64,000 bases of DNA. Source: Escherichia phage YJin-2024a. Position 1 is the first letter of the stretch; each line of letters begins with the position of its first letter. Below are positions 5,173 to 20,583 of this stretch, piece by piece. The position numbers were made by a program, and so were the translations under genes. The stretch is taken from the sequence record PP534475.1, one strand, 5' to 3'. The notes beneath the pieces are model-generated. The model saw only the letters and a list, made by a program, of their open reading frames with translations, did no database searches and was not told the origin of the DNA.

Positions 5173-6386
5173 TCTTTATCTCCCTCGGTGGAACCTTGAG
5201 GTCTACCACCTTCTTGACCAGATACGCCTGTTGCAGAACCAGCAACGTTAGCAGGAATACGAATCTTATTCATCTGCTCATCATCTAAAGGTTCAAGGTT
5301 CAGCTCTAAACGAGCTTCGTTACCAGTCATAATACCATTATTAACCAATGAGGTTAAATGTTTAGCCTCAGCTTCTTTATCTGGTGTTAATGCAGCTACT
5401 TCCTTAGTATTAGGAGTAATCTTATAACCAAAAAAGAAAGTAAGAGAACTAGTCAGCTTGTTCAGCATAGGGATGATAGTCATGTAATAGAACAGTTCGA
5501 TATTTGGTCGAATGTTCGCATTATTACCACCATCAAGTAGCACCTGCGGAACACCAAAGGCTAGACAGATGGATTTATTAAATCCTTCGATGTCTTCCTT
5601 AAAGTCTAGATCTTTAAAAGAGGATATTTGGGAGTACGGTTTAGCTTTCATACCACCATCTAGAATCAGGACAGAGGACTGACCAGTACTAGGATTATAA
5701 TCTAGTTGTAATTCTTCTTGTTTACGCTCACGCAATTTCTTGTTCAGGATTTCATCCGTCTCAAGAATAAGACCAATCACGGTTCCGTTATCGAGGAATT
5801 TCTCTTTAAAGTTAAGCATCTTAGAACGCTTCTCAAGAGAATCGATAACAGTAGCAACACGAGATTGTCCAGAAATTTGAGAATTTGTGCCACACACGTA
5901 ACTGTTATCCTTTATAAAGATAATCTCATCTACGCGATAGTCTATCTGGTTATTAAATATAAATTTTTTGATAAACTTATTGGCATCTGCCTCTACTTGC
6001 ATTAGTGCAGCAGGGACATGGTAAAGTGCTGTGCCATCCCAATAGATGTATGCACAACCTTCAAAAAGTAGGTCAGTGACTACAAGTCTACGGAATGTGC
6101 TTATATCCATGAATGGATTAGGTCGTACATTTAAGAGAGTGTCTAGAGTCTTTGTCTTGATGCCGTTAGCATACGTGACAATATTATATTTATCTCCGAC
6201 AGTATAAGAACACTCCGCCGCACTATCTATAACCATATTAGCAGTTCTATTGAGAATCTCAATTTTACTGTAGGCTTGTCCAGTGGTAAAAGGCTTACGG
6301 TTAGTGCGATGACTAACTGGTTCCATGTCTCTTATAATACGTTGACCCGGATTTAGCTTTTCAGTAATCCAGCTTTTAAAACCCAT
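5169..6386 (-). CDS. portal protein
   Basis: 405 aa; position between terminase and protease. Confidence 0.8.
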   Translation of the reverse strand: MGFKSWITEKLNPGQRIIRDMEPVSHRTNRKPFTTGQAYSKIEILNRTANMVIDSAAECSYTVGDKYNIVTYANGIKTKTLDTLLNVRPNPFMDISTFRRLVVTDLLFEGCAYIYWDGTALYHVPAALMQVEADANKFIKKFIFNNQIDYRVDEIIFIKDNSYVCGTNSQISGQSRVATVIDSLEKRSKMLNFKEKFLDNGTVIGLILETDEILNKKLRERKQEELQLDYNPSTGQSSVLILDGGMKAKPYSQISSFKDLDFKEDIEGFNKSICLAFGVPQVLLDGGNNANIRPNIELFYYMTIIPMLNKLTSSLTFFFGYKITPNTKEVAALTPDKEAEAKHLTSLVNNGIMTGNEARLELNLEPLDDEQMNKIRIPANVAGSATGVSGQEGGRPQGSTEGDKE

Positions 6387-6823
6387 TATAAGAACCTTGC
6401 GAATCCTGATTTTGTTTCAGTCTTGACTTGTGTCTTTTCTTGAGGATTCTGTAATTTGTCTTTCTGCTTTTGAACCCACACTTTTTGCTTATTAGCAGAA
6501 AATAAAGGAGGTTCTTTTGTGTAAACCTTATGTAATAATTGGTGGTGATGCTGGCAGAGTGTTACTACTTCTTCAATTAGCTCTCGCTCATATTGCTTAT
6601 AGAATGCTTCCCTATTTGATAGGGTAACTTCCTCATCAGTGAAATCTAAATGATTTTCTTTAGCGAACTTTTTTACTAATTGAGAAACAGTAAAATAATG
6701 ATGCAACTCTAGGTCATCATTACTAGCACAAATGGCACAGCAATCACCTCTTCTATACCTAGATTTTATACCGTCACGCATGATTGAAATAGCGTCACGT
6801 TTAAACTTTACATTAGTTGCCAT
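6386..6823 (-). CDS. HNH homing endonuclease
   Basis: CCAICASNDDLELHHY HNH-type motif; internal ATG with AGGAG RBS chosen as start; inserted between terminase and portal. Confidence 0.6.
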   Translation of the reverse strand: MATNVKFKRDAISIMRDGIKSRYRRGDCCAICASNDDLELHHYFTVSQLVKKFAKENHLDFTDEEVTLSNREAFYKQYERELIEEVVTLCQHHHQLLHKVYTKEPPLFSANKQKVWVQKQKDKLQNPQEKTQVKTETKSGFARFL

Positions 6824-7083
6824 TAATGCTCCTAACTTTTTTATTATAATACTGTATGCGGTTATTATTAACTCTACTATACAGATTTTTATGCTGCCTC
6901 GGCGGGTATTTTTACCTCTAATATAGGCAACATAGCAAAATAATTTTTCTTGTTTACGTTCTATTATGGGAGAAGTTCTCCCGATCAATGAATATAGTAT
7001 ACATAATCGTATCGAATTTGTAAAGGGGATTTTAAAATGTAGGAATGGGATACCAACTGAGTAGTATCCCATCCTATACTTAT

Positions 7084-8400
7084 TTATTTACCACGGGAAA
7101 TAGAGTAAATTCCGTAGCGCAGAGCATCACAAAGGTGAGAGTTAGCATCATGACGTGGTTTTTCACGTGATAATTTTTCTTCACCTTCTTGGAAATCCCA
7201 CTTATAGTTCTGCAATGCATGGATTAATGAGGAACATGAAGCATCTACAATAATCTTACCTTGCTGGAATAGTGCTTGTAAACATGCTAGACCGTCTAGG
7301 ACAGACTTTTTAGCTGGGGCTGATGCAATTTCATGCTCATAAGCTAAGTCCTGACGGAACTGAGCTGCGGCAGAGTCAACAAAAACACGATCAACTTTAT
7401 AACGATCTATACAGTGCTGAATGTAAGCAGCATGCTGAGCTGTAGTTTTCTCCGCTTGCTGGTACTCCTCTAATACATAGTAAGTATCCGTATCGTAATG
7501 ATATTTAATAGTAAGAACTGCTGTAGGATCACGATAACCCACGTCAATGCCAAGCAATGTTTCAAAGGCTTCATCATCTTTAAAGAAGTGACGCATACCT
7601 TTAAGGTCTTTAACATGATCAATAGCATTAAAGGTATCGAAGATCTGACCTTCGAATACAGAGAAGTCAGCCTCGTATTCTTGGCGGAAGTAGTTTTTAC
7701 TAACAGTACGACGTGCTTCTTCGATATCATTCAGATCAGCACGTGGATTATCACGATATGTACCATGAATAGACACCCAGTTAGGCAACGTATCGTCAAA
7801 CCCATAGGCATAAAACTCTTTAAACCAGTTACCACCACGAGGAGTAGAGATAAATAGAGCCTTAGAGTTTGGTTTATCTAGGGTAGGGCGCAACTGAACT
7901 CTAAAGGCATCACCACCTACATCGGAAATTGCCGCCTCGTCAAAGATGATAAAGTCATATGAACGTCCAACTGCGGAGTCAGCCTGCGCCGCGGAAGCTA
8001 GTTTAAACAGTGAGCCGTTTGCCAGCTCAATCTCTTTATCTTTAGCGTTCTCACGTTCGGTTTGTAGGCCATACTTCTTAATGAGACCACGAATCTGAGA
8101 CCATCCGATGTTGGCCAGTGAATAGTTAGGAGCAACTACTAACACCTTCACGTTAGGTTCCAATAACTTTAGGAACCCAAGTGTGTATGCGATGAAGGAT
8201 TTACCTACACGGCGTGATACACACGCCGTTACAAAACGATGTCTAGGGTCCTCTAGAGCATTAATAATTGCTATTTGAGGACCATTAGGTGTTATACCTT
8301 CTTGTGCTAGTATTCCCGAAACAGGTAGACGAAAGAAACGTTTATCTATTCCGAAATCAATAACATCTACCGTATTAACGTAGGGTCTTGATACTTCCAT
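7084..8400 (-). CDS. terminase large subunit
   Basis: 438 aa; VGKSF Walker A-like N-terminal ATPase region and acidic nuclease region; upstream of portal. Confidence 0.85.
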   Translation of the reverse strand: MEVSRPYVNTVDVIDFGIDKRFFRLPVSGILAQEGITPNGPQIAIINALEDPRHRFVTACVSRRVGKSFIAYTLGFLKLLEPNVKVLVVAPNYSLANIGWSQIRGLIKKYGLQTERENAKDKEIELANGSLFKLASAAQADSAVGRSYDFIIFDEAAISDVGGDAFRVQLRPTLDKPNSKALFISTPRGGNWFKEFYAYGFDDTLPNWVSIHGTYRDNPRADLNDIEEARRTVSKNYFRQEYEADFSVFEGQIFDTFNAIDHVKDLKGMRHFFKDDEAFETLLGIDVGYRDPTAVLTIKYHYDTDTYYVLEEYQQAEKTTAQHAAYIQHCIDRYKVDRVFVDSAAAQFRQDLAYEHEIASAPAKKSVLDGLACLQALFQQGKIIVDASCSSLIHALQNYKWDFQEGEEKLSREKPRHDANSHLCDALRYGIYSISRGK

Positions 8401-8892: not shown

Positions 8893-10680
8893 TTAGGTAA
8901 GGCGTTGAACTGTTACTCTTAATCTTGGTAGGAAAATAGCTGCAGCCTCATCTGCATGAATAATTACGCCCAATTCAGCATTACCATTTCCTAGATTTTT
9001 AATAGTATAAATATATCCGTTTCTTCTAAATGTTAACTCATCAGGTCTACTTGCCCAAGTTTGAGTATAACTATATGCAGTAGTGGAGTGATAAGGGACT
9101 AAGTATCCAGGAGGTAAGGTTAATATTTGATGGAATATTCCATCACCTTCCGTGTAACTATGCTGTCTTCTTCCTTGTACTTGCCAAGCAGCACCACCGT
9201 ATGTGCGTATGGCTCCTCCAGCCGTATTAATATTACCCATAATAACTTCCGTAGTTAATATTACCGTTGCGTTAGCGTTAGGCAATCCTAATCCTATGGT
9301 GGCCAAAGCTCTATAGTAGTTGCCTGCTCCAGGATACGCGGGGGTTATATCATCACCAACGTAGGTGCTAGCAACATTATTAGGAAATAGTCTTAAAGGT
9401 ACAGTACTAGGACTCCACACAGCTCCATGCTCATTACCGATAGTGTTATTACTTGAGTTTACGTACCATTGCTTACCTGCTCCGAATTTGTAAATACTGA
9501 TTTGAGACTTGGCTCCTCCATAATCTACAGGAGACCATAAAGATCCATTACTAGATCCTACAATTTCACATCTTGCAGTGGTATCCCCGAAGGCTCCAGT
9601 GTACGCTGCGTTATTTCCAATGTACTCCATATCTGGCCTATAGCCTAAGTTACCAAAAGCATTTTGGTTGATAAACTTATATCCAGTATTTGGTAAACTA
9701 ACCCCTTTTATAGTAAAATTAGATGGAGTTATAAGTATATCTGACCCAGTAAATGGATTACCAGATACACCCATATTACCATTAGAGTACCTTAGATTAA
9801 GTACATACCAAATAACCTTAGTAGGAGTTATGTTATACCAATCCTGCACATACACTTTCTTAGCGGCCTGTGCTGCTAGATTAGATGTTGAACCTTTACA
9901 TATATAAACCTTATCAGGATACGTAGGAGATTGGTATAATAAGTTAACATTAGCTGGTACTGTGCCCTTTTTACCTACGTAACCTCGTATATTAGAGTTA
10001 CAAACATAGAACCAATTATGCCCCCTATGGGCGGCCCCTATAGGAGCTTGCCAATTAGGATGCCAGTAGTCAGCATTACCACCGTCTATAGGTACTGTAG
10101 ATGCTCCTGCTGGAAATCCTGCTAAAGTCCATGCCCTACCTATAGCCTCACCAGCATATGCTCCTCCCGGCCTATATAAATTAAACCCGGAGGCTTGAGA
10201 TATGGTACCACCTGTACCCTGCCTAGCAATTGATTCTTCATGGCCTAAACCAGAGTTATAAATATAGGTGCCATGTGCTAAACTATTACCTGATGCAAAA
10301 GCTGACGTAAGACCTACTTCTGCACCTGCCCTACCAATAGGCGGATCTTCAAAAAATGCAGTAAATTGACCAACTTGAGACTGAGTACCATTAAGAAAAG
10401 CCCTATGAGTACCATTAATCTCAATAGCAGTTAGTATAACTCTACCTGGGTCATTGGATTTAATATTTATTATGTCAGAGGGCATCTGACATACAAAAAA
10501 CCCATTTCCAGCATTTCCTAATCCAGCCTCATAAGTGCCATCAACTAGGACAAATGGCATATCACTATGAAAAATACTATTGGCATTTGGACTATAATGA
10601 CGATTAATGTCACCACCAGATTCAGTATTTAAAGATAGTACGGTCTTACCATCGCTATATTTTCCAGCGAAAAAACCCAT
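8893..10680 (-). CDS. receptor-binding tail protein (pb5/Oad-like) or tail fibre
   Basis: 595 aa, Gly/Asn/Tyr-rich; last late gene before the repeat region; divergent lipoprotein gene next to it, as recalled for T5 oad-llp. Confidence 0.5.
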
Positions 10681-11864: not shown

Positions 11865-12015
11865 TTTGACTTTTGCCAAATTTCATAAGATTACACATGG
11901 AGGTGTGCCCAGTGGCCTCCCGGATGAGAATGCGTCTCATTACCGCCCGGTACTTAGCAGACTAATAGTCACGGCATGTTATCATTGCACACCGTGACTA
12001 TTTCAATTTTAATTA

Positions 12016-12750
12016 TTATGCGACTTTTAGTTTCTCAATATATTGTTGCGGGCTGCAACTATATTCCGCGCGTTCTTCCTCGGTCATACTTTCCCAGCAT
12101 AACTTCAATCGATCGGCTAGAAATTGATAATCATTATCATCGTCGAGAGATTCATCAATAAAGGTTCCGCCTATCAATGCCACGCCGATGGATAGAATAT
12201 CATTAACGGCTTGCGCATCTAGCGTTTTAAATCCGTATGACGCCGCCGCTGATAATACACCTTTATGATCATCAATCATTGTAAAATCAGCGTTCGGATA
12301 TAGTTGCTTGAATAGCTCAAAGTAATGGCTTTTATATATATCGTCCTTGCTGTGGTATATCTCGCTAACCTTATCAGCCGTAAAATATTTGTGAAGTGTA
12401 TCGCGGGAAAACACGCGGATATTAGTATCCCCACGCCCGCGCAATCCTTGTTTGCGTAGGAAGTAATAATCTGACTTGCTCATCAGTCGAGCGGTACAAA
12501 TAATGTTTAAAGTGTTTGCGTCATTCATGCACTGGCGCATATATTCCACCAATGGCAATAAGGTATCTTGCATAATTAAATCATGCTTGCAAGCCTCATT
12601 TTTATACTTATTTAAATCTAAATTACCCTCGCTATCAAAGCAAGGTGCTACACGATGGAACGAATTAATGATTGTGCCATCAAGATCCCAGATCATGACA
12701 CGGGAAATATGCGGGAAATTACGGGTAATATTCGTTTTAACTTGATTCAT
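12016..12750 (-). CDS. dmp: 5'-deoxyribonucleotidase (HAD superfamily), Dmp-like
   Basis: HAD motif I WDLDGTI; start placed at the internal Met with GGAGA RBS (244 aa). Confidence 0.7.
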   Translation of the reverse strand: MNQVKTNITRNFPHISRVMIWDLDGTIINSFHRVAPCFDSEGNLDLNKYKNEACKHDLIMQDTLLPLVEYMRQCMNDANTLNIICTARLMSKSDYYFLRKQGLRGRGDTNIRVFSRDTLHKYFTADKVSEIYHSKDDIYKSHYFELFKQLYPNADFTMIDDHKGVLSAAASYGFKTLDAQAVNDILSIGVALIGGTFIDESLDDDNDYQFLADRLKLCWESMTEEERAEYSCSPQQYIEKLKVA

Positions 12751-12830
12751 TTTGTTACGTTCTCCATTAAAGGGATTTAGTTTATCCAGCATTACCCGCT
12801 ATTTATAAGCGGGTAATAATAAATCAACTA

Positions 12831-13223
12831 TTAAAGACCATAAGCCAACGCATCAGCGATGAAGCTAATATCTTCGCCGGATACATGAGAACGAATACCA
12901 GCGCAAGTATACACCTTTGCGCTCGTTAGCTGATCATCAAAGCAAGCTGGACAAGGCGCGACAACTGCAAACGCTAGGCCAGCTTTTACGGCGTCGATGA
13001 TAATCGTTTCCTGCTTCACCGTATCAACATAAACGCCTGCGGCCTTGATGTGACTACTTGCGCGGCCTTGAGTATAGGCAAAGGTAGTAACCTGCAAAGC
13101 GTCATTGAAGTCTAATAATTCATCAATAACGTGCCCCGCCTCAACGTGGTAACGTTCACCATTAGAATAAACCAGAACGATTGAGGATTGAGCGCGATCG
13201 AATGGAATATTTTGCTTTTTCAT
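12831..13223 (-). CDS. hypothetical protein (130 aa)
   Basis: ORF with conserved pre-early leader upstream; contains PCPAC motif but no convincing family assignment. Confidence 0.5.
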   Translation of the reverse strand: MKKQNIPFDRAQSSIVLVYSNGERYHVEAGHVIDELLDFNDALQVTTFAYTQGRASSHIKAAGVYVDTVKQETIIIDAVKAGLAFAVVAPCPACFDDQLTSAKVYTCAGIRSHVSGEDISFIADALAYGL

Positions 13224-13288
13224 GTTTATAACTCCAATTAATTTAATAAGGGATATAAGCGAGGTATATACCCCGCTTATAAAGTTAA

Positions 13289-14959
13289 TTATGCGAAAAA
13301 TTTGCCGTTTTTAAAGTCAATCAAAGTGCGCTGACCGTTCGCATAGGTAATTAAATGCGTTTGCGTCCAGCTTGACGCGCCAACGTTGTAACCCATATCG
13401 AGGGAACCAGCAACGCCCGCGGTATATACACCGCCGTAAATGCTTGCCGTATGCGTATGCCCCGTGTTTAACTTGCCCAATTTTTTAAATTGCTTCGGAT
13501 TGCCACGGCTGCCGTTAATGCCGTTGTGACCGTGTACGCCGCATTCAATGCCTGCAATTTTAAATGATTGGTCAGTCGTTAGGAAAATTGCGTTAAACTC
13601 GCAACCTGCAACCGTACGCAGCGCATAATCTAGCACGTTGAAAGTATCGTCATGATTACCGATTGCCGCGTAAATCGCAGCATTAAGGCGGTGATACAGT
13701 TCCGCGTTGGCTGGATCGTCTTTAATGTTAGCATTGCGATCATCAAGCCAACGAGAAAGCGCCAAATCGTGGTTTGATTCCACAATGATTGTTTGACTAA
13801 AATCACGTTCCATTGATTCCAGCACGCGCCCGGTGTCGATCAGATCATCAATAACCTTATCACGTCCGGCTGCATACTGTTTCGCTAGAAATACACCAGA
13901 CGCGCGGTTGTGATGGTTGCGTGATGTAAAATCATGCACGTCATGGACGAATTGATATTTTGGTTTGAGAATATCCACTAGCCCATAAGTATCACCGTGA
14001 CCCCATGACGCAGCGGCGCACTCCTCGTCTAATTTTTCGGCGTGAATATCGCCATATTGCAAGCCTAAAACATGCCCCGTTGTTTCAAAGCATCCGGTGG
14101 GAGTAGCGCAAACGTTCAGATCGTAAAACATGCCGCTTTCGTCCATTGTTTCAAGCTGGCGCACAAAAAACTCACCGTCTTCGTCGAACTCAACAATCAG
14201 CGCACCGTAATTATGCAATGCTTCCGCTTTTTGCCCTGCTTTCTGCTGAATGTAGTTTTTAAGCGTTGCCGTTCCGGTTGAATACATGCGGCGTACTACT
14301 TCACCTTTGAGAGCTGGGACGCTTTCGGCGGTGATTTTAGCGTGACCAATTGCCAGACCTTCAAGATTAAGCGCCGTTGCAGTTTCTGCAAATCCAGATA
14401 GCGGGTAATCTGCGGTGGGCAAAACATTAATTTCAGCCATGAAAGCGAAACGGCGGTTATTTAAAAACACGTTTTTGCTGCAAATATATTTATCAAATGC
14501 GGAATCATATTTTACACCGTCTGCGCCTTCACCATTTTGAAAGCCGTTTTTGTTATAAATATACTTAGAAACAAGCAAATCAGCGCCGATAAATTGGGCA
14601 TATTGTTCAAGCGAGGCTAAAAAGTTTTTATGAGGGAAAGTATTATTCTGAATCGATGTAATAATAAAGCGTTTGCCTTGTTTTACTTCCCACTGTTCAA
14701 CCGTGCTGGAAATAATTCCAGCCGCTTCGGGGCGCTCGTCGTTTTTAATGGCTTTTACAGCTTTCGCCGCTTTTGGTTTCGCTGGTTTATTTGCTTCTAA
14801 CCAATCGCAAATTGCGGTCGAGTGCTTCGTTGTGTCATATACCGCTTTAGAAATATCGTCACAAACTTCCAGCTTGGTGGCGCGCAGACGTTTACCGTAG
14901 AAATTAAAGTCAGCGGCCAGTTTCAGGATAACGGTTTGTTTTTCTGCGGAAAAAATCAT
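13289..14959 (-). CDS. A1: A1-like pre-early protein, calcineurin-like metallophosphoesterase
   Basis: GDIHA, GHGDTYG, SNHD and GHTH phosphoesterase motifs; 556 aa from the internal Met, the length I recall for T5 A1. Confidence 0.75.
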   Translation of the reverse strand: MIFSAEKQTVILKLAADFNFYGKRLRATKLEVCDDISKAVYDTTKHSTAICDWLEANKPAKPKAAKAVKAIKNDERPEAAGIISSTVEQWEVKQGKRFIITSIQNNTFPHKNFLASLEQYAQFIGADLLVSKYIYNKNGFQNGEGADGVKYDSAFDKYICSKNVFLNNRRFAFMAEINVLPTADYPLSGFAETATALNLEGLAIGHAKITAESVPALKGEVVRRMYSTGTATLKNYIQQKAGQKAEALHNYGALIVEFDEDGEFFVRQLETMDESGMFYDLNVCATPTGCFETTGHVLGLQYGDIHAEKLDEECAAASWGHGDTYGLVDILKPKYQFVHDVHDFTSRNHHNRASGVFLAKQYAAGRDKVIDDLIDTGRVLESMERDFSQTIIVESNHDLALSRWLDDRNANIKDDPANAELYHRLNAAIYAAIGNHDDTFNVLDYALRTVAGCEFNAIFLTTDQSFKIAGIECGVHGHNGINGSRGNPKQFKKLGKLNTGHTHTASIYGGVYTAGVAGSLDMGYNVGASSWTQTHLITYANGQRTLIDFKNGKFFA

Positions 14960-15048
14960 AATAATAAACTCCATTAAAGGGACTAGGTTAATAATGGCAA
15001 TGTTGCCAAATATAACGCCTTGAATAATAGGCGTTATAATTTGCAACA

Positions 15049-15246
15049 TTAATTTAAAGGCATCAGGCTAGAACTAACACCACAAACAATGGCAGCAATA
15101 AAACAAATCAGACCTAAACGCTTTGCCAATATTGATTTACGTTTAAAATAATACGAATCTAAATCATTTTGAAAATATGCGAACAATAATGAAGCCGCCA
15201 TAATAAATAAGCCTAGAATGAGCGATTCAGTGGGGTAAAAGATCAT
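15049..15246 (-). CDS. small membrane protein
   Basis: Hydrophobic 65 aa; start placed at the ATG preceded by the conserved pre-early leader (the ORF track begins at an upstream GTG). Confidence 0.4.
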   Translation of the reverse strand: MIFYPTESLILGLFIMAASLLFAYFQNDLDSYYFKRKSILAKRLGLICFIAAIVCGVSSSLMPLN

Positions 15247-15303
15247 TTTAATAACTCCAATTAAAGGGAAATTATAGTGGGGAATAATCCCCACTAGTTA
15301 AAT

Positions 15304-15711
15304 TTATTCACCTGCGGCCTGTTTTACCTCATCGGCAACGCCTAGCAGTTGCGCCACGGCGTCCAACGTTTCTAATTTTGCGCTTTCCAGTGATGCCAGA
15401 TCATCGGCGTCCTTGATAATGCCGGAATCAATAGCGTGTTTTGCAATTACTCGCACATAGTGAGCTTTACGGATTGAACTACCGCCGCCAACTTTGCGCG
15501 GCTTGTCGCTTTTCTGGTAGGCTTTCGCGCTGGTCAATTTCGAACGAACTGACACGGGAGAAGTAGCGCCCACTGCCTTTGCGATCTCTTTCAAGCCGTC
15601 GCTATTTGCAAAATCTAGCCCGTTTTCATTGATTAGTTGCTGATACATGGAAACAGCCTGCTGGGTGTTTTCTTCGTTCCAGGAAAATTTTGCGGTTTTT
15701 GCGTTAGTCAT
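15304..15711 (-). CDS. A2: A2-like pre-early protein
   Basis: 135 aa, basic C-terminal half; immediately downstream of A1; conserved leader upstream. Confidence 0.55.
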   Translation of the reverse strand: MTNAKTAKFSWNEENTQQAVSMYQQLINENGLDFANSDGLKEIAKAVGATSPVSVRSKLTSAKAYQKSDKPRKVGGGSSIRKAHYVRVIAKHAIDSGIIKDADDLASLESAKLETLDAVAQLLGVADEVKQAAGE

Positions 15712-15811
15712 GATATAAACTCCAATTAATTTAATTTAAGGGATTAAATGATTAACTAATGTTAATCGTTATATACCCCAAACTATCGGGGCATATAAAG
15801 TTAACACTAAT

Positions 15812-16063
15812 TTATAAAACGGCTTCCCATTTTTCGTTGCGTTGAACAACCTTTACAACGTCGCCGGATTTAACGCGAACGTTATAAATCGGCTTGCCGC
15901 TGTTACTGCGTTCTGTTTCAGCGTATACCGCGTCAATTGTATCGAACGGCATGAGCGCCGCGCCTTTAATACGTTCGGCTTTTCCGGTTAATTCGTCCGT
16001 TTTAGTAACGAAAGGAATAAAAACGGATTGACCAATTTTTGGCGCGGTAATAACGTTTTGCAT
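15812..16063 (-). CDS. hypothetical protein (83 aa)
   Basis: ORF with partial conserved leader upstream. Confidence 0.4.
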   Translation of the reverse strand: MQNVITAPKIGQSVFIPFVTKTDELTGKAERIKGAALMPFDTIDAVYAETERSNSGKPIYNVRVKSGDVVKVVQRNEKWEAVL

Positions 16064-16293
16064 AATATAAACTCCTGTTTATTTGCTGGATTGTTCCGCA
16101 TTACCTGCTAGAAAATAACAGGTAATAAGAAAAAATCCGCTCGCCATTGTAAAATCAATTTAAGGAACTCCACGAAGGCCGCTATATCCCAGTTAGGGGG
16201 CGGGGCACATTATGGCAAGTACCGGCCGTCAGATTTTATCAAGTTATCGCTCTTATCGAACTGGGTATATCTTAAAGCCTACCGGCTAGGTTG

Positions 16294-16497
16294 TCAAATA
16301 GTTTTTTGCGCTTTTTTATGATTTTCCTTCAGGTCAATCATAATGTTTCGCCAGATCATTTCTAGTCCTTGCTGGCGGCCTTTCTTGTACTGCTCAAATC
16401 GATATTTTACCGATCTTTGCGCTACTGTCAATAAATTTTTTGTTTTGCTATCCAGTGCCTTGCTAGGTTTACCAGTGATCAATAAAGTTTGTTTCAT
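16294..16497 (-). CDS. hypothetical basic protein (67 aa)
   Basis: ORF only. Confidence 0.3.
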   Translation of the reverse strand: MKQTLLITGKPSKALDSKTKNLLTVAQRSVKYRFEQYKKGRQQGLEMIWRNIMIDLKENHKKAQKTI

Positions 16498-17187
16498 ATC
16501 GTCGATTCCTTATAATGAATAAGTTTACCGCCGATAGGCTTTAAGATATACCCAATTTTTAAAGAGCGCGGCGGTAAACTTCCCGCCGTGTAGTTCGTCA
16601 TTGCCGCCCTACGAGATAAATAATAACAAACAACGAAAAAGGCGCAACCTTATATTTGTAAAGAAATGTAAAGACAAACGCCACCGGACACCGTGCGGCG
16701 ACCTGGGCGCAGCGCATTAAAATTAAAAGAAACGGGCGCGCGAATAACACAAAACATAGCAGATAGGCAAGTGATTTTTTCATTTATATTTGCTTTGGGG
16801 GTATTGACAAAATCTAAAAAGCTCGTGGCAGCGATAAACGGCTTATCCCTTTATGATTGGATGGCTAAAAACTTTATCGCGTTCTGGGGCGTTTTAGGCC
16901 GCCTATTTTCGACTTAACAAATCATTAACAAACGCAAAATTGAAAAATAGTTGGAAAAGGTCTTGACTTTTAAAAATCAAGGGGCGTTGCGTTAATTTAT
17001 TAAATAAAATATTTGACTTTTATTTGTTAGTATGCATCGGAAAGATAGCAGACTAATAATTGCTAGGATGATAATCATGCTGGTGGATTGTAACGGCCTG
17101 AATTATTAGCAGACTATTAATCACGGAAAATCTCATTAGCCAACTAACTATTTCATGATATATAATATACTTATAAATTAATGAGAA

Positions 17188-17270
17188 ATAATAACAATAA
17201 GAAATCATCACCATTATAATAATAACAATAAGAAATCATCACCAATATAATAATAACTATAAGAAACTAT
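17188..17270. repeat. tandem ~30 bp repeat, about 2.8 copies
   Basis: ataataacaataagaaatcatcacca repeated head-to-tail. Confidence 0.7.
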
Positions 17271-17280
17271 CGGCCTAAGT

Positions 17281-17410
17281 GAGAACCACTATCATTTAAG
17301 TTATCCACAACGTTTTCCACAGCACAAAATAACTTGACACGATAGGCGGCGATATGAGGGCTTTTACACATACTTATCCACAGGTTATCCTACTGTATAA
17401 ATATACAGGG
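17281..17410. repeat. inverted repeat arm A with DnaA-box motifs
   Basis: Two perfect TTATCCACA boxes (about 17301 and 17375); reverse complement matches 19575..19710. Confidence 0.75.
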
Positions 17411-17643
17411 TAGAAAGACAGTGTTAACGACTGCAATCAATTTTAAGCGGCTTAAAACGCTTTCTAACGAGCTGAAGGCTGCGGGGTAATATTAAAGTAA
17501 AGCCTCAATGCGTCGCCCTGGTGGCTTCGCCGTGTTTTGCTCTTTATTACACCGCTGCGCGGTTAGCATAAAAATAGGCGTTAGGCAAGAAAAAATTTAC
17601 CAATAACACCGAAAACGAGTAATAACTAGCCTATTGTAAAGTT

Positions 17644-17684
17644 TTGTAAAGGTCGCCTTTTATGGTGGCCTTTTTTGTTATAAT
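17644..17684 (+). promoter_or_regulatory. candidate promoter with extended -10 (TGTTATAAT)
   Basis: tgtTATAAT at 17677-17684, about 25 nt before the first plus-strand ORF. Confidence 0.35.
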
Positions 17685-17707
17685 GCCTTTACACCGTTTG
17701 AGGACGG

Positions 17708-17971
17708 TTGAAAATTTTCCCAAAAATTTGGAGGCTTAAAATGGTTGCTTTTTCTTCTTCTGACGCTCTTTTCACTGGTAAAGGCTGGGTATCAAATCGC
17801 TGGATTATTCAGGAAATGGTGCAAGAATACGGCATTGCTAAAACTTATACTACCATTCAGGCGCTTTATGATAATGATCAAATCGATCAGCAAACAGCGG
17901 GCTTTTTACTGGATACCCTGAAGGCGGAACACTGTACCAAAAAACAAGCCGCCAAAATTGTTTTAATGTAA
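17708..17971 (+). CDS. hypothetical protein (87 aa)
   Basis: GGAGG RBS; first gene of the plus-strand module. Confidence 0.5.
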   Translation: MKIFPKIWRLKMVAFSSSDALFTGKGWVSNRWIIQEMVQEYGIAKTYTTIQALYDNDQIDQQTAGFLLDTLKAEHCTKKQAAKIVLM

Positions 17972-18021
17972 TTAATAACGGGGCGATACTTTCGCCCCCA
18001 CTAACTAGGGGAGTATTAAAA

Positions 18022-18171
18022 ATGGTTATTTTTCGAGCTATTCTGGCGGGTATCTTGGGCGCTATTTTATCTTTGTTTGCAATAGCTTTCGACGTTCACG
18101 CGGTTATTATAGGCGCGGGTATCGCTGTATTTTCTTATCTGCTGGGCTGCATGAATAGTAAAGGAGAATAA
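18022..18171 (+). CDS. small membrane peptide (49 aa)
   Basis: GGGGAG RBS; hydrophobic throughout; not in the ORF track. Confidence 0.35.
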   Translation: MVIFRAILAGILGAILSLFAIAFDVHAVIIGAGIAVFSYLLGCMNSKGE

Positions 18172-18173
18172 AA

Positions 18174-18386
18174 ATGATCCGCAACGTTTCTCTTGCACGT
18201 TCGAAAGGTTTTAAGCTGGTGGACGCTAACACGTTCGAGCGTCCAGATTGTAAAATCGAATATGTAGCACGTAATAAAAATGCCTTTCGTGTTACCGAGA
18301 AAAAATTTGATAAGCGCGGCAACGTGATCCTTGAAACGGTTAGGCACTTTGCCACCTTTTACGCTGCATTTCGTGGGGTACTATGA
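18174..18386 (+). CDS. hypothetical protein (70 aa)
   Basis: AAGGAG RBS immediately upstream. Confidence 0.5.
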   Translation: MIRNVSLARSKGFKLVDANTFERPDCKIEYVARNKNAFRVTEKKFDKRGNVILETVRHFATFYAAFRGVL

Positions 18387-18508
18387 AAAGCGTTATTGTT
18401 GTTCTCCTTGCAATGGCTGGCGGTTTTATCGCCACCTTATTTAAGAATGATCCTCTTTCATTGGGGATCTTTATGTTATTATCAGGCTATCTGATCGGGA
18501 GGTTATAA
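18383..18508 (+). CDS. small membrane peptide (41 aa)
   Basis: ATGA overlap with the upstream ORF; hydrophobic. Confidence 0.35.
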   Translation: MKSVIVVLLAMAGGFIATLFKNDPLSLGIFMLLSGYLIGRL

Positions 18509-18509
18509 A

Positions 18510-18854
18510 ATGGTTATTTATGAGGGCAACCGTTTTGTTGCTAACTGCCGCCCGGCATTGTTAGCAAACTATTTGAACCAGCTTTCGCCAGCTTATAAGG
18601 GCGTTATTAATATTTATGAGGGCAAGGCGCATTATAAAATCAATGCGGTCGTTGCCCGTGAACTAGCGTTTCAATTTTTGACCTTTGCATCTTGCGACGT
18701 TCAGGTTATGGGTGAGGCATTAATCGCAGAAAATGAAGACGATTTTATTAATATTTTCCGTAAGGTGTGCACCGAGCGCCTGATAATGAAAGGCGCGTAT
18801 ATTCAATCCACGGCTGATAGTATTGAAACAGCGTTTCGAAAAATAGGTAAATAA
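18510..18854 (+). CDS. hypothetical protein (114 aa)
   Basis: GGGAGG RBS; largest ORF of the module. Confidence 0.5.
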   Translation: MVIYEGNRFVANCRPALLANYLNQLSPAYKGVINIYEGKAHYKINAVVARELAFQFLTFASCDVQVMGEALIAENEDDFINIFRKVCTERLIMKGAYIQSTADSIETAFRKIGK

Positions 18855-18855
18855 T

Positions 18856-19017
18856 ATGGCTGTTTATATTGCTTTGCTAGGATATGCGTTATCCCTTATT
18901 GTTGGTATGGTTATTTATAGCGCAATCGGCAATATTGTGTTATCCCTTGTTGTCTGCACTATATTAGGGCAGTTTTGCGGAATGTTCGTTATATATAAAT
19001 TAATGCAAGGAAAATAA
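18856..19017 (+). CDS. small membrane peptide (53 aa)
   Basis: Starts 2 nt after the upstream stop; hydrophobic. Confidence 0.35.
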   Translation: MAVYIALLGYALSLIVGMVIYSAIGNIVLSLVVCTILGQFCGMFVIYKLMQGK

Positions 19018-19127
19018 TACTAATGAGATTATATATTTTCGTTGGTAATGCTAGGGCAGCTAATGATTCCGCTGGTGGCGATAACGTTCGCCACTATTGG
19101 CAAAAATATATTTACTAGGGCATTATT

Positions 19128-19322
19128 ATGAGCAATAAAATTATTGTAACCAAAACTAGTACAATGGTTGATATTTTTTACGTGCCCGATACGCCGGAAA
19201 ACCGACAAGCGGTTGAGCGTGGGGAATATGATAAAGTGATCTATGATCACGATGGTTATTATCAGTATTTGGTGGATTCATATGGGGAGGAGGAAAAAAT
19301 CACGCATCGACTACCCGACTAA
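19128..19322 (+). CDS. hypothetical acidic protein (64 aa)
   Basis: ORF with upstream ATG context. Confidence 0.4.
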   Translation: MSNKIIVTKTSTMVDIFYVPDTPENRQAVERGEYDKVIYDHDGYYQYLVDSYGEEEKITHRLPD

Positions 19323-19365
19323 TAATCACGGGGCGCAACTATCCGGAAGTGCCCCCAATTTTCAA

Positions 19366-19384
19366 ATGATAATCATTCTCATTT
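19366..19384. promoter_or_regulatory. palindromic site AATGATAATCATTCTCATT (full-site version of the half-site repeat downstream)
   Basis: Near-perfect dyad built from the AATGAGAAT half-site. Confidence 0.5.
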
Positions 19385-19574
19385 GACCGCGCCCGCGATG
19401 GTTAGCCTGCTAATGGTTAGGGTGTTACGTGTCGCCTTGTGTGATCGTTAGCGGGCTAACTAATTTTCAAGCCTCCTCCAATTTTGCCCTTGTTTTAGTA
19501 CCTCCAACAAAATTAAACGCGTTAGAATGCGTTTGAGGGCGTTTTAACGCTATATTAGAACTATTCACTGCGTA

Positions 19575-19710
19575 GGAATACTGTATATTTATACAGTAGG
19601 ATAAGCTGTGGATAAGTCTGTTGATAACGCCTCAAAATGGCTAGGATTTTGTCAAGTCAAATCGTGCTGTTGATAAGTCTGTGAATAACTTAAATAACAG
19701 TGTTTCTCAC
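19575..19710. repeat. inverted repeat arm B with DnaA-box motifs
   Basis: Reverse complement aligns with 17281..17410 over about 130 bp; TGTGGATAA at about 19607. Confidence 0.75.
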
Positions 19711-19719
19711 TTCCATTCT

Positions 19720-19937
19720 TAAATGAGAATCATTATCGTTCGCATTCCGCTTTTTAAATGAGAATCGTTTCACTTCTTAAATGAGAATCATTCCGCTTTT
19801 TAAATGCGAATCATTATCATTTGCATTCCACTTCTTAAATGAGAATCATTCCGCTTTTTAAATGAGATTGATTCTCGTTTCACTTTCTAAATGCGAATTA
19901 TTATCATTCTCATTCCGCTTTTTAAATGAGAATGATT
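19720..19937 (+). repeat. array of 8 direct repeats TAAATG(A/C)GAAT(C/G)ATT
   Basis: Copies at about 19720, 19755, 19778, 19801, 19836, 19859, 19888, 19923. Confidence 0.8.
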
Positions 19938-19983
19938 CTTATTATCATTCGTATTTAGCGCAGGGCAATTGCCCTGCGCTTTT

Positions 19984-20583
19984 GTGCAAATCCGACATTG
20001 CTCCACGGGTGTTACGTGCGGGTGTATGTGCAAATCCGACAGGATTTTTGGTAGTGTGCAAATCCGACCCGAAAAATTTTTATAGTGTGCAAATCCGACA
20101 ATGAATTTTCCCAAAAACTCCAGCAATCTCGAACTGCGTTCGAATCCTGTGGGGTATGTGCAAATCCGACATGGTTTTTCTAGGATTAAGATGTGCGAAT
20201 CCGACAAGATTTTTATGACTTCGATTGGAGGGTGTGTGATTATGTGAGTTTGGGGAGAAGATGAGAGAGTGAGAGAAACTTGGGGGAACTGTGGGAGAGG
20301 CGCATGTTTGGTGCGGAGCACCCGATTTGCGGGGATTTTGGGGAAGAGTTGAGAAGATTTGGGTTAATTTGAGATTAGTGGAGATAAAGTAAAATTTTAT
20401 TAGCAAAATGGGGCAAAATAGCTTGACAAGTGAAAATTTCTGTGGCTCTAAAAACTCAGGTAAACATGGGCCTTCGGCCCGAAATAATGCTGCTATTTTC
20501 ATGAGATTATATGTTCCTAAAAACTTAGGCAATTGTGCAAATCCGACCATAAATTTCTAGAAACACAATGTGCAAATCCGACA
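19984..20583 (+). repeat. array of 8 direct repeats GTGCAAATCCGAC(A/C)
   Basis: Copies at about 19984, 20028, 20056, 20087, 20158, 20193, 20535, 20570, each followed by a short T-rich tract. Confidence 0.8.
20226..20400 (+). repeat. purine-rich block with several G4-5 tracts, almost no C on the plus strand
   Basis: gggagaag, tgggggaac, gcggggatt, ttggggaag within about 170 nt. Confidence 0.6.

What the first reader, a model, noticed from the sequence alone, without database searches (positions are those of the whole stretch)
17281..19710. About 130 bp inverted repeat with DnaA boxes flanking a 2.2 kb plus-strand module of small genes
Arm A (17281-17410) and arm B (19575-19710) are imperfect reverse complements, each carrying TTATCCACA-type DnaA boxes (perfect boxes at about 17301, 17375 and 19607). 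They enclose seven or eight small plus-strand ORFs, four of them single- or double-TM peptides, opposite to every neighbouring gene. A module bracketed by DnaA-box inverted repeats could be a host-DnaA-controlled or replication-linked pre-early unit.
Basis: partly seen in the sequence, partly recalled or inferred. Interest (0 to 1): 0.75.

Follow-up and report, generated by a model that had tools for sequence, protein, structure and literature searches.

The report
Known T5 DnaA-box inverted repeats
The repeat is real, but it is the already described pair of 131-bp DnaA-box inverted repeats that flank the rightward pre-early genes in the first-injected DNA of T5-like phages; its function, thought to be pausing DNA injection, has never been tested.

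Summary
Arms 17277-17408 and 19581-19712 are 132 nt and 77% complementary (104 bits; best of 100 shuffles 41). Together they carry eight DnaA-type boxes as four pairs with 3-bp gaps, and they enclose eight small plus-strand ORFs, four of them hydrophobic.

The window is a T5-like phage, about 94% identical to Spc35/SSP1. The arms are the orthologues of T5's IRC-spacer-IRD and IRD'-spacer-IRC' repeats. These are annotated in GenBank AY587007 and were analysed by Davison, who proposed that both belong to the injection stop signal acting through membrane-bound DnaA. No experiment has tested this.

My comparison of 33 genomes shows selection on the motifs, not on arm-to-arm complementarity. The arms do not evolve in concert, and arm B is the more constrained. 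Vibrio-type relatives have only arm B.

The enclosed module is inverted in Klebsiella and Pectobacterium relatives, its content varies, and it is dispensable in T5. The arms are therefore not module-specific controllers, and nothing supports a replication role.

Beyond what I found in the literature: each arm ends in a near-consensus LexA (SOS) box conserved across the family, and a Fur-box-like array adjoins arm B. The finding as given is already known. The combined host-factor reading is new and testable.

The parts
17277..17408 (.). Arm A, the orthologue of T5 IRC-spacer-IRD (Repeat Region 2)
   Evidence: Inverted repeat I1. 83% identical to T5 6098-6228. Present in 31 of 33 relatives.
17301..17309 (+). 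DnaA box 1 of arm A, TTATCCACA (perfect)
   Evidence: This column set is 93% conserved across 32 arm A copies.
17313..17321 (+). DnaA box 2 of arm A, TTTTCCACA (fits TTWTNCACA), 3 bp after box 1
17362..17370 (+). DnaA box 3 of arm A, TTTTACACA (fits TTWTNCACA)
17374..17382 (+). DnaA box 4 of arm A, TTATCCACA (perfect), 3 bp after box 3
   Evidence: 97% conserved.
17391..17410 (.). SOS-box-like palindrome at the inner end of arm A, TACTGTATAAATATACAGGG
   Evidence: 23.0 bits on an SOS-box matrix; the next best site outside the arms scores 15.3. Conserved at this position in relatives.
17440..17594 (.). Non-coding stretch just inside arm A, highly conserved and nearly identical to T5 over most of its length. 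It contains T5 inverted repeat B'. Function unknown.
   Evidence: Alignment to T5. No Rfam family and no unusual fold.
17648..17673 (+). Intrinsic-terminator-like hairpin. In T5 and Spc35 it is the terminator after gene 011; here the 011 gene and its promoter are deleted.
   Evidence: Deletion endpoints correspond to T5 6414 and 7479. T5 terminator annotation.
17676..17684 (+). Extended -10 promoter-like TGTTATAAT, the likely promoter of the remaining operon (equivalent to T5P5)
   Evidence: Read directly from the sequence. Identical in T5 and Spc35. T5P5 is annotated in AY587007.
17741..17971 (+). T5.012 homologue, 76 aa, function unknown
   Evidence: 97% identical to T5.012. phrog_5145.
18022..18171 (+). 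T5.013 homologue, 49 aa, hydrophobic. T5.013 is annotated with two transmembrane domains and gene 013 is reported toxic in E. coli.
   Evidence: T5.013 annotation. Toxicity.
18174..18386 (+). T5.014 homologue, 70 aa. PHROG and RefSeq label this family as the Ung-dependent abasic-site nickase.
   Evidence: 94% identical to T5.014. phrog_4227. See the naming conflict under Noticed in passing.
18383..18508 (+). 41-aa hydrophobic peptide, homologue of SPC35_0013
   Evidence: (phrog_19184).
18510..18854 (+). T5.015 homologue, 114 aa. By T5 locus tag this is the toxic Ung-dependent nickase of PMC8201957.
   Evidence: 91% identical to T5.015. phrog_4379..
18856..19017 (+). 53-aa hydrophobic peptide
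   Evidence: 96% identical in Spc35. Hydropathy. No PHROG match.
19042..19131 (+). 29-aa hydrophobic ORF, homologous to the N-terminus of T5.016. Coding status is uncertain.
19128..19322 (+). T5.017 homologue, 64 aa, function unknown
   Evidence: 89% identical to T5.017. phrog_6973.
19362..19384 (.). Fur-box-like palindrome CAAATGATAATCATTCTCATTTG, inside the module's 3' non-coding region
   Evidence: 1 mismatch to the 7-1-7 motif TGATAATnATTATCA..
19579..19598 (.). SOS-box-like palindrome at the inner end of arm B, TACTGTATATTTATACAGTA (T5 'palindrome D')
   Evidence: 25.5 bits, above every E. coli SOS box used for training. T5 feature at 9330-9349.
19581..19712 (.). Arm B, the orthologue of T5 IRD'-spacer-IRC' (Repeat Region 3, the left part of the annotated injection stop signal)
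   Evidence: About 94% identical to T5. Falls within the iss feature of AY543070. Present in all 33 informative relatives.
19607..19615 (-). DnaA box 4 of arm B, TTATCCACA (perfect)
19619..19627 (-). DnaA-like box 3 of arm B, TTATCAACA (non-consensus at position 6)
19668..19676 (-). DnaA-like box 2 of arm B, TTATCAACA (non-consensus at position 6)
19680..19688 (-). DnaA box 1 of arm B, TTATTCACA (fits TTWTNCACA)
19713..19955 (.). Array of Fur-box-like repeats (T5 direct repeats C, palindromes E to I), immediately outside arm B
   Evidence: Together with the site at 19362, eight positions with 5 or fewer mismatches to the 19-mer Fur box within 600 bp, where simulations gave at most 2. Repeat families D1 and D2. 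T5 features.
19958..19979 (+). Hairpin GCGCAGGGCAATTGCCCTGCGC followed by a T-run. Orthologue of T5 palindrome J, where the 7.9% nick is annotated.
   Evidence: Sequence. Alignment. T5 features.

Best explanation
These are the two inverted copies of the T5-family FST repeat: IRC-spacer-IRD (arm A) and IRD'-spacer-IRC' (arm B). They sit in the non-transcribed borders of the rightward pre-early operon, inside the terminal repeat that enters the cell first. Arm B forms the inner edge of the injection-stop-signal region.

Each copy is an ordered array of protein-binding sites. From the outer end inwards it reads: a conserved 24-bp block; a DnaA-box pair; a central TTGACTTGACA; a spacer; a second DnaA-box pair; TTATCC; and a 20-bp SOS-box-like palindrome.

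I think each copy acts on its own, as double-stranded DNA bound by host proteins. DnaA is the published proposal, and LexA is a plausible addition from the sequence. On this view, as the FST DNA arrives, a nucleoprotein complex assembles and contributes to the pause of DNA transfer at about 8% of the genome. Arm B would be the main site and arm A a weaker, dispensable second site.

Shown here: the identity of the element, its motif architecture, its conservation pattern, and its independence from the module's orientation and content.

Inferred: binding of DnaA or LexA, and any role in the injection pause.
For: Identity with the T5 element:
- Arm A is 83% and arm B 94% identical to T5's repeats at the syntenic position.
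- The same repeats are annotated in AY587007, and the iss feature is annotated in AY543070.
- The published description matches exactly: 131 bp, eight boxes in pairs 3 bp apart.

Selection acts on motifs, not on pairing:
- The consensus sequences of arms A and B are identical at boxes 1 and 4, TTATCC and the palindrome. They agree at only 20-41% of columns in the flanks, gap 1 and the spacer.
- In distant genera the motif columns keep 75-90% identity, while the other columns keep 43-60%.
- In arm A the motif columns are more conserved than the rest (p = 3e-4).

The arms are independent copies:
- Within-genome A-versus-B identity is 0.767, the same as between genomes (0.764). Orthologous arms are 0.87 (A) and 0.93 (B) identical.
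- Arm B is present in all 33 informative genomes. Arm A is missing in two Vibrio-type genomes.

A host factor is plausible:
- The motifs stay constant while A2 diverges to 40% identity.
- The palindromes score 23.0 and 25.5 bits on an SOS-box matrix, and a site of at least 17 bits is present at the same place in every genome.
- The stop needs a cellular factor, because ejection into FhuA proteoliposomes is complete (quoting the preprint).
- A second FST band at about 5.8 kb, near arm A, was reported in 1979.
Against: - No binding or genetic test exists. A 2023 paper states that experimental studies are lacking.
- Half of the boxes in arm B (TTATCAACA, TTATTAACA) break the CACA core of the DnaA consensus.
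- Arm B is uniformly conserved among close relatives, spacer included, so something beyond the recognised motifs is constrained.
- A T5 mutant lacking hegG through 017, a span that includes arm A if the deletion is contiguous, is viable with small plaques.
- How a cytoplasmic DNA-binding protein would physically halt translocation is unexplained.
- T5-like phages grow on recA1 hosts such as DH5a (H59), so LexA cleavage cannot be required for infection.
- The SOS-box matrix was built from sites I recalled from memory.
Confidence: 0.55

Rival explanations
1. The arms are recognition sites for phage proteins, not host proteins. For example, the essential DNA-binding dimer A2, with A1, could bind or cut there to restart second-step transfer. 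The resemblance to DnaA and LexA sites would then be incidental.
For: A1 and A2 are the only FST genes essential for infection and second-step transfer, and A2 binds double-stranded DNA as a dimer. Davison proposed cleavage at a palindrome in this region. A 20-bp perfect palindrome suits any dimeric protein. Arm B's spacer is also conserved.
Against: The motifs are invariant from E. coli phages to Vibrio phages while A2 falls to 40% identity. Co-evolving phage protein and site pairs usually drift. Four ordered 9-mers matching the DnaA consensus, plus a 25-bit SOS box, are hard to explain by coincidence.
Confidence: 0.2
2. The arms make the enclosed genes a DnaA-controlled expression unit, or they act as an origin-like, replication-linked element (DnaA boxes next to AT-rich repeats).
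For: There are four consensus DnaA boxes in arm A. The outer flank of arm A is only 20% GC and carries three 31-bp direct repeats, which superficially resembles an iteron origin.
Against: Mapped and annotated promoters lie outside the arms: 86 bp to the left and 183 bp to the right of arm A in T5. I found no conserved promoter inside the arms (and reading of the alignment). The module is inverted, variable and dispensable. The 31-bp repeats are absent from 19 of 32 relatives. T5 origins map near the genome centre and replication genes are not in FST DNA. The cassette has no counterpart in plasmids or E. coli chromosomes.
Confidence: 0.07
3. The arms exist as recombination substrates, and the module is an invertible segment flipped by homologous or site-specific recombination between them.
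For: Gene order and strand of the inter-arm segment are reversed in Klebsiella Sugarlandvirus and Pectobacterium DU_PP_V relative to T5, this window and Erwinia KEY.
Against: None of 535 matching phage records carries the inverted junction. The arms are only 77% identical, with no sign of gene conversion. No invertase gene lies in the module. Conservation is at the motif level and extends to lineages with a single arm.
Confidence: 0.07
4. The repeat region belongs to the signals that define the terminal-repeat boundary during concatemer processing and packaging, not to injection.
For: By homology to the Spc35 annotation, arm B lies about 740 bp inside the right boundary of the terminal repeat. 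Repeats (DR D) straddle that boundary in T5.
Against: There is no direct evidence. Arm A lies 2 to 4 kb further in, at variable distance. The shear-defined FST end maps next to arm B.
Confidence: 0.08
5. The two arms pair with each other, either as a DNA cruciform or stem or as a long-range RNA stem in one transcript, and the structure is the functional unit.
For: 132 nt at 77% complementarity.
Against: Complementarity is not maintained where the sequence varies: the spacer consensus of A and B agrees at 41% of columns, with no compensatory pattern. The arms are 1.7 to 4.1 kb apart at variable distance. The module promoters lie inside the arms, so arm A is not on the module transcript. Single-arm lineages exist.
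Confidence: 0.03

Closest known systems
Bacteriophage T5 inverted repeats IRC-spacer-IRD (6022-6152) and IRD'-spacer-IRC' (9332-9462) of FST Repeat Regions 2 and 3, the injection stop signal region (GenBank AY587007; Davison preprint 10.1101/866236, which attributes the first DnaA-box report to a 1987 paper)
   Same: Same genomic position, between the hdi-A2-A1 operon and the terminal-repeat end. Same length and orientation. Eight DnaA or DnaA-like boxes in four pairs with 3-bp gaps, palindrome D at the inner end, and adjacent DR C and DR D repeats. Identity is 83% for arm A and about 94% for arm B.
   Different: Here all four arm A boxes fit the strict consensus, whereas T5 has lost one. This phage lacks gene 011 and its promoter. 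It has three 31-bp AT-rich repeats outside arm A that T5 lacks.
Chromosomal DnaA-box clusters of E. coli (oriC, datA, DARS)
   Same: Clusters of same-orientation 9-mers in which a consensus box sits beside a weaker one at a short fixed gap. From established knowledge of oriC, this arrangement favours cooperative DnaA binding.
   Different: No demonstrated DnaA binding, no recognised unwinding element, no role in replication, and no sequence homology to E. coli or plasmid DNA.
LexA operators (SOS boxes, consensus TACTG(TA)5CAGTA; my knowledge of the E. coli regulon)
   Same: A 20-bp palindrome matching 18 to 19 of 20 consensus positions and scoring as high as the best E. coli boxes.
   Different: It does not overlap a recognisable promoter. 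It is present in a virulent phage with no known SOS-regulated genes. Binding is untested.
Invertible gene segments bounded by inverted repeats (Mu G segment, P1 C segment)
   Same: A gene module flanked by inverted repeats that is found in both orientations among related phages.
   Different: No invertase gene. The repeats are long, divergent and rich in motifs. No orientation polymorphism among 535 close relatives.

Membership tests
T5-type FST inverted repeat pair (IRC-spacer-IRD / IRD'-spacer-IRC') | Located in the terminal repeat (FST DNA) of a T5-like phage, to the right of the dmp-A1-A2-007-hdi leftward operon | tested here: met
   Best hits are Spc35 and SSP1, with the match inside the annotated left terminal repeat. 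Homologues of A1, A2, 007 and hdi lie to the left, and T5.018 to the right.
T5-type FST inverted repeat pair (IRC-spacer-IRD / IRD'-spacer-IRC') | Two inverted copies of about 131 bp, homologous in sequence to the T5 repeats | tested here: met
   132-nt arms. 82.6% and 93.9% identity to the T5 arms. Alignments.
T5-type FST inverted repeat pair (IRC-spacer-IRD / IRD'-spacer-IRC') | Eight DnaA or DnaA-like boxes arranged as four pairs separated by 3 bp | tested here: met
   Boxes at 17301/17313, 17362/17374, 19607/19619 and 19668/19680.
T5-type FST inverted repeat pair (IRC-spacer-IRD / IRD'-spacer-IRC') | Encloses a variable block of pre-early genes transcribed opposite to A1/A2 | tested here: met
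   Homologues of T5.012 to T5.017 on the plus strand. The block length varies from 1.7 to 4.1 kb among relatives.
Injection stop signal (functional definition) | Acts in cis to halt DNA transfer at about 8% of the genome | not testable with these tools
   Only positional evidence is available: arm B is orthologous to the left part of the annotated T5 iss and lies next to the shear site.
DnaA-binding site cluster | 9-mers matching TTWTNCACA, clustered beyond chance | tested here: met
   Four in 135 bp, where 300 simulations gave at most 2.
DnaA-binding site cluster | Bound by DnaA protein | not testable with these tools
   No published test.
DnaA-dependent replication origin | An AT-rich unwinding element adjacent to the boxes, conserved among relatives | tested here: inconclusive
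   A flank of 20% GC lies outside arm A, but its 31-bp repeats are absent from 19 of 32 relatives and no 13-mer-type element was recognised.
DnaA-dependent replication origin | Replication initiates there | not testable with these tools
   The literature summarised places T5 origins near the genome centre.
LexA operator (SOS box) | A CTGT-N8-ACAG palindrome with an AT-rich centre that scores within the range of known boxes | tested here: met
   23.0 and 25.5 bits, against 12.9 to 23.8 for the training sites. The matrix was built from sites recalled from memory.
LexA operator (SOS box) | Overlaps a promoter that it represses | tested here: not met
   No conserved promoter overlaps either palindrome. 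The one 10-of-12 match, on the minus strand at 17427-17400, is not conserved in T5.
Site-specific invertible segment | A recombinase gene in or beside the segment, and both orientations present in populations | tested here: not met
   No recombinase among the module proteins. None of 535 records has the inverted junction.

The most novel reading that the evidence does not exclude
The arms and their flank form a composite docking platform for three abundant host DNA-binding proteins. Each arm would bind DnaA (four boxes) and LexA (a near-consensus SOS box at the inner end). Fur would bind an array of about eight Fur-box-like repeats just outside arm B.

On this reading, the T5 injection stop signal is a nucleoprotein complex of host factors assembled on the last part of the FST DNA. 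The pause, or pre-early expression, would then be coupled to the host's replication, SOS or iron status.

The LexA and Fur components are not mentioned in the T5 literature I could search. I could not read Davison's 2015 review or the 1987 paper.
Probability: 0.25. Interest if true: 0.7.

Novelty: already known. Interest (0 to 1): 0.3.

Why it matters
How T5 stops injecting its DNA at 8% of the genome and then restarts has been an open question since the 1960s, and the cis-acting signal has never been dissected. This locus is that candidate signal.

The finding as stated adds nothing to what is annotated for T5. The family-wide comparison does sharpen the experiment in four ways:
- The conserved unit is a set of motifs (two DnaA-box pairs plus an SOS-box-like palindrome), not the arm-to-arm complementarity.
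- Arm B is the primary copy.
- The enclosed genes and their orientation are irrelevant to the element.
- Two further host regulators, LexA and Fur, become specific and cheap candidates to test alongside DnaA.

Tried and rejected
1. RNA-level function. Rfam gave only sub-threshold hits (PrrF 29 bits against a gathering score of 90; CrcZ 23 against 95). The conserved 17410-17700 stretch folds no better than shuffles on either strand (z = -1.0 and -0.6).

2. Promoters inside the arms. The central TTGACA has no usable -10 on either strand. The single 10-of-12 promoter-like match overlapping the arm A palindrome is not conserved in T5.

3. An active invertible switch. A chimeric inverted-junction query found no record with 80% or more coverage among 535 matching records.

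4. Concerted evolution or gene conversion between the arms. None was detected.

5. Borrowing from a plasmid or chromosomal origin or operator. No match in 72,556 plasmids or 5,426 E. coli genomes.

6. An origin-like reading of the AT-rich 31-bp repeats. They are not conserved.

7. A LexA-cleavage timer for second-step transfer. I considered it and set it aside, because T5-like phages are propagated on recA1 hosts (H59).

8. Literature access. Davison's 2015 review could not be read, so I cannot rule out an earlier mention of LexA or Fur there or in the 1987 paper. Two search calls failed because a term was too short.
Full report
**What is there.** The repeat finder reports arms at 17277-17408 and 19581-19712: 132 nt, 77% complementary, 2172 nt apart. 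A BLAST of arm A against the region gives E = 6.6e-26. The best inverted self-match scores 104 bits, against a maximum of 41 in 100 composition-preserving shuffles.

Perfect TTATCCACA occurs only three times in the 64-kb window: 17301 (+), 17374 (+) and 19607 (-). With the consensus TTWTNCACA, arm A holds four boxes (17301, 17313, 17362, 17374), whereas 300 simulated sequences never had more than two within 135 bp. Arm B holds 19607 and 19680 plus two TTATCAACA variants at 19619 and 19668. In both arms the boxes form two pairs with 3-bp gaps, all in one orientation.

Eight plus-strand ORFs lie between the arms, and four are strongly hydrophobic. The genes on both sides are on the minus strand.

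**What genome this is.** The region is about 94% identical to Salmonella phage Spc35 and Shigella phage SSP1 (Tequintavirus). The match falls inside their annotated left terminal repeat, the first-step-transfer (FST) DNA. To the left are homologues of A1 (13289-15049), A2 (15304-15711), T5.007 and hdi. To the right is T5.018. By homology to Spc35, the terminal repeat spans roughly window 11885 to 20450.

**It is a known element.**
- GenBank AY587007 (T5) annotates inverted repeats C (6022-6060), D (6112-6152), D' (9332-9372) and C' (9424-9462). It also annotates palindrome D (9330-9349), direct repeats C and D, and the 7.9% nick.
- AY543070 annotates the injection stop signal (iss) at 9140-10149.
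- Davison's preprint (10.1101/866236) describes the 131-bp IRC-spacer-IRD and IRD'-spacer-IRC' repeats in 25 T5-like phages. It reports eight DnaA or DnaA-like boxes in pairs 3 bp apart, and attributes the first report of DnaA boxes there to a 1987 paper.
- He argues that both copies are part of the iss and proposes tethering to membrane-bound DnaA.
- The window's arms align to T5's at 83% (arm A) and 94% (arm B).
- A 2023 paper on BF23 states that experimental studies of these sites are lacking.

**The enclosed genes.** They are homologues of T5.012 (17741-17971), T5.013, T5.014, SPC35_0013, T5.015, a 53-aa peptide, the N-terminus of T5.016, and T5.017. Six match PHROG families and none matches Pfam.

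In T5, gene 015 encodes a toxic nickase that acts at abasic sites made by host Ung. Genes 011, 013 and 015 are toxic when expressed alone.

This window has a clean deletion of about 1.06 kb that removes 011 and its experimentally mapped promoter (T5 6414 to 7479). What remains is the 011 terminator (17648-17673) followed by an extended -10 element, TGTTATAAT (17676-17684), identical in T5. This is the likely promoter for the remaining operon.

**How the arms evolve (my analysis).** Using the A2 protein as an unbiased probe, I collected 34 distinct T5-family genomes, 33 of them informative.
- Both arms are present in 31. Two Vibrio-type genomes (A2 40% identical) have only arm B, matching Davison's 'Type 4'.
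- The distance between arms ranges from 1.7 to 4.1 kb.
- In the alignment of 66 arms, the consensus of A and B is identical at boxes 1 and 4, at TTATCC and at the palindrome (93-97% majority). It agrees at only 20-41% of columns in the flanks, the first gap and the 22-bp spacer. Complementarity as such is therefore not what is maintained.
- Within-genome A-versus-B identity (0.767) equals between-genome A-versus-B identity (0.764). Orthologous arms are 0.87 (A) and 0.93 (B) identical. There is no concerted evolution, and arm B is the more constrained.
- In arm A, motif columns are more conserved than the others (entropy 0.20 against 0.42, p = 3e-4). In arm B the whole 132 bp is conserved among close relatives.
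- In the distant genera, motif columns keep 75-90% identity to the window, against 43-60% for other columns.
- The cassette has no counterpart in plasmids or E. coli genomes.

**The arms do not serve the module.**
- In T5 the annotated promoters lie 86 bp to the left and 183 bp to the right of arm A. I found no conserved promoter within either arm.
- At protein level, the order arm A, 011, 015, 017, arm B on the strand opposite A1/A2 holds in T5, Spc35, the window (minus 011), DT57C, GSW6, YZU-L1 and Erwinia phage KEY.
- In Klebsiella Sugarlandvirus phages and Pectobacterium phage DU_PP_V, both order and strand are reversed. This is an inversion of the inter-arm segment.
[quoted passage not shown] That may refer to the same fact.
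- A chimeric inverted-junction query found no such arrangement in 535 matching records. The inversion is an old difference between lineages, not an active switch.
- A T5 mutant deleted from hegG to 017 is viable, with small plaques. If that deletion is contiguous it also removes arm A. The text does not give the endpoints.

**Additional motifs.**

*LexA-like palindrome.* The inner end of each arm is a 20-bp palindrome: TACTGTATAAATATACAGGG at 17391 and TACTGTATATTTATACAGTA at 19579. It matches the E. coli SOS-box consensus TACTG(TA)5CAGTA (my knowledge) at 18 to 19 of 20 positions.
- On a matrix built from 25 E. coli SOS boxes recalled from memory, the two sites score 23.0 and 25.5 bits. The training sites score 12.9 to 23.8, and the next best site in the window scores 15.3.
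- The pattern TACTGTAT-N4-ATACAG occurs only at these two places. Simulations gave zero occurrences.
- A site of at least 17 bits sits at the same position in every genome examined, including the Vibrio-type phages at 22.8 bits.
- This is T5's 'palindrome D'. The preprint does not mention LexA or SOS, and my searches found no such report.

*Fur-like array.* The region just outside arm B (T5 direct repeats C, palindromes E to I), together with a site at 19362, contains eight positions within 5 mismatches of the 19-bp Fur box GATAATGATAATCATTATC, a consensus used for example in PMC4506495. Simulations gave at most 2 per 600 bp, and a mean of 0.07 when the region's own composition was kept. Most relatives have one to four such sites within 260 bp of arm B. 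A search for T5 together with 'Fur box' found nothing relevant.

**Most likely mechanism.** The element is a double-stranded protein-binding cassette present in two independent, oppositely oriented copies. Arm B is the primary one, at the inner edge of the iss.

Three points favour host proteins as the ligands:
- The motifs are constant across hosts from E. coli to Vibrio while the phage's own DNA-binding protein A2 diverges.
- The stop requires a cellular factor, since ejection into FhuA proteoliposomes is complete.
- A second FST band was historically seen near arm A.

DnaA is the published candidate and LexA is a sequence-based addition. Binding, and any causal role in the pause, are inferences. 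I put 0.55 on this overall reading. The identification with the T5 repeats is close to certain.

**Rivals.**

| Rival | Confidence |
|---|---|
| Sites for the phage proteins A1/A2 | 0.20 |
| Signals for the terminal-repeat boundary in packaging | 0.08 |
| Recombination substrates | 0.07 |
| Arm-to-arm pairing | 0.03 |

The evidence for and against each is given in its own section.

**Verdict.** Novelty: already known. What may be new is the LexA and Fur reading, and the explicit demonstration that selection acts on motifs and is independent of the enclosed module.

Noticed in passing
window 17391-17410 and 19579-19598: Near-consensus LexA (SOS) boxes at the inner end of both arms, scoring 23.0 and 25.5 bits. 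They are conserved at the same position in all 33 T5-family genomes examined. I found no mention of this in the accessible T5 literature.
   Followed up: yes
window 19362-19384 and 19713-19955: An array of Fur-box-like palindromes (AATGAGAATCATT cores): eight positions within 5 mismatches of the 19-bp Fur box in 600 bp, where simulations gave at most 2. Relatives have similar sites just outside arm B.
   Followed up: partly
window 12125-12139: A perfect 7-1-7 Fur motif, TGATAATCATTATCA, inside the 3' part of the dmp coding sequence, about 240 bp from the inferred left end of the terminal repeat. I did not check its conservation.
   Followed up: no
L004, L007, L012 (Klebsiella Sugarlandvirus) and L006 (Pectobacterium DU_PP_V), compared with window 17409-19580: The whole gene block between the arms is inverted, in both order and strand, relative to T5, this window and Erwinia KEY. 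None of 535 close relatives shows the inverted junction.
   Followed up: yes
window 17594-17596: A clean deletion of about 1.06 kb relative to Spc35 and T5 removes gene 011, which is toxic in E. coli, together with its experimentally mapped promoter.
   Followed up: yes
window 17187-17279: Three tandem 31-bp AT-rich repeats, the first two carrying a run of six AAN triplets, just outside arm A. They follow a promoter-like site at 17137-17166 and gave a weak Rfam CrcZ hit (23 bits, far below threshold). At least one copy is present in only 13 of 32 relatives. If transcribed, they would resemble an Hfq-binding ARN tract, but this is pure speculation.
   Followed up: partly
window 17440-17594: A non-coding stretch just inside arm A is nearly identical to T5 over most of its length and better conserved than the adjacent genes. 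It has no Rfam match and no unusual fold, and remains unexplained.
   Followed up: partly
window 19974-20214 and onward: Multiple copies of GTGCAAATCCGAC (T5 direct repeat D) run across the inferred right boundary of the terminal repeat, near 20450. Function unknown.
   Followed up: no
window 18174-18386 versus 18510-18854: An annotation conflict. PHROG 4227 and RefSeq place the label 'endonuclease nicking abasic sites generated by Ung' on the 70-aa T5.014/ORF015 family. By T5 locus tag, the protein characterised as T5.015 should be the 114-aa product.
   Followed up: partly
Phage records OR847365.1 and others: Records labelled as Listeria and Campylobacter phages match this T5-like region, one of them at 92% identity. 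They are probably mislabelled or contaminated entries.
   Followed up: no
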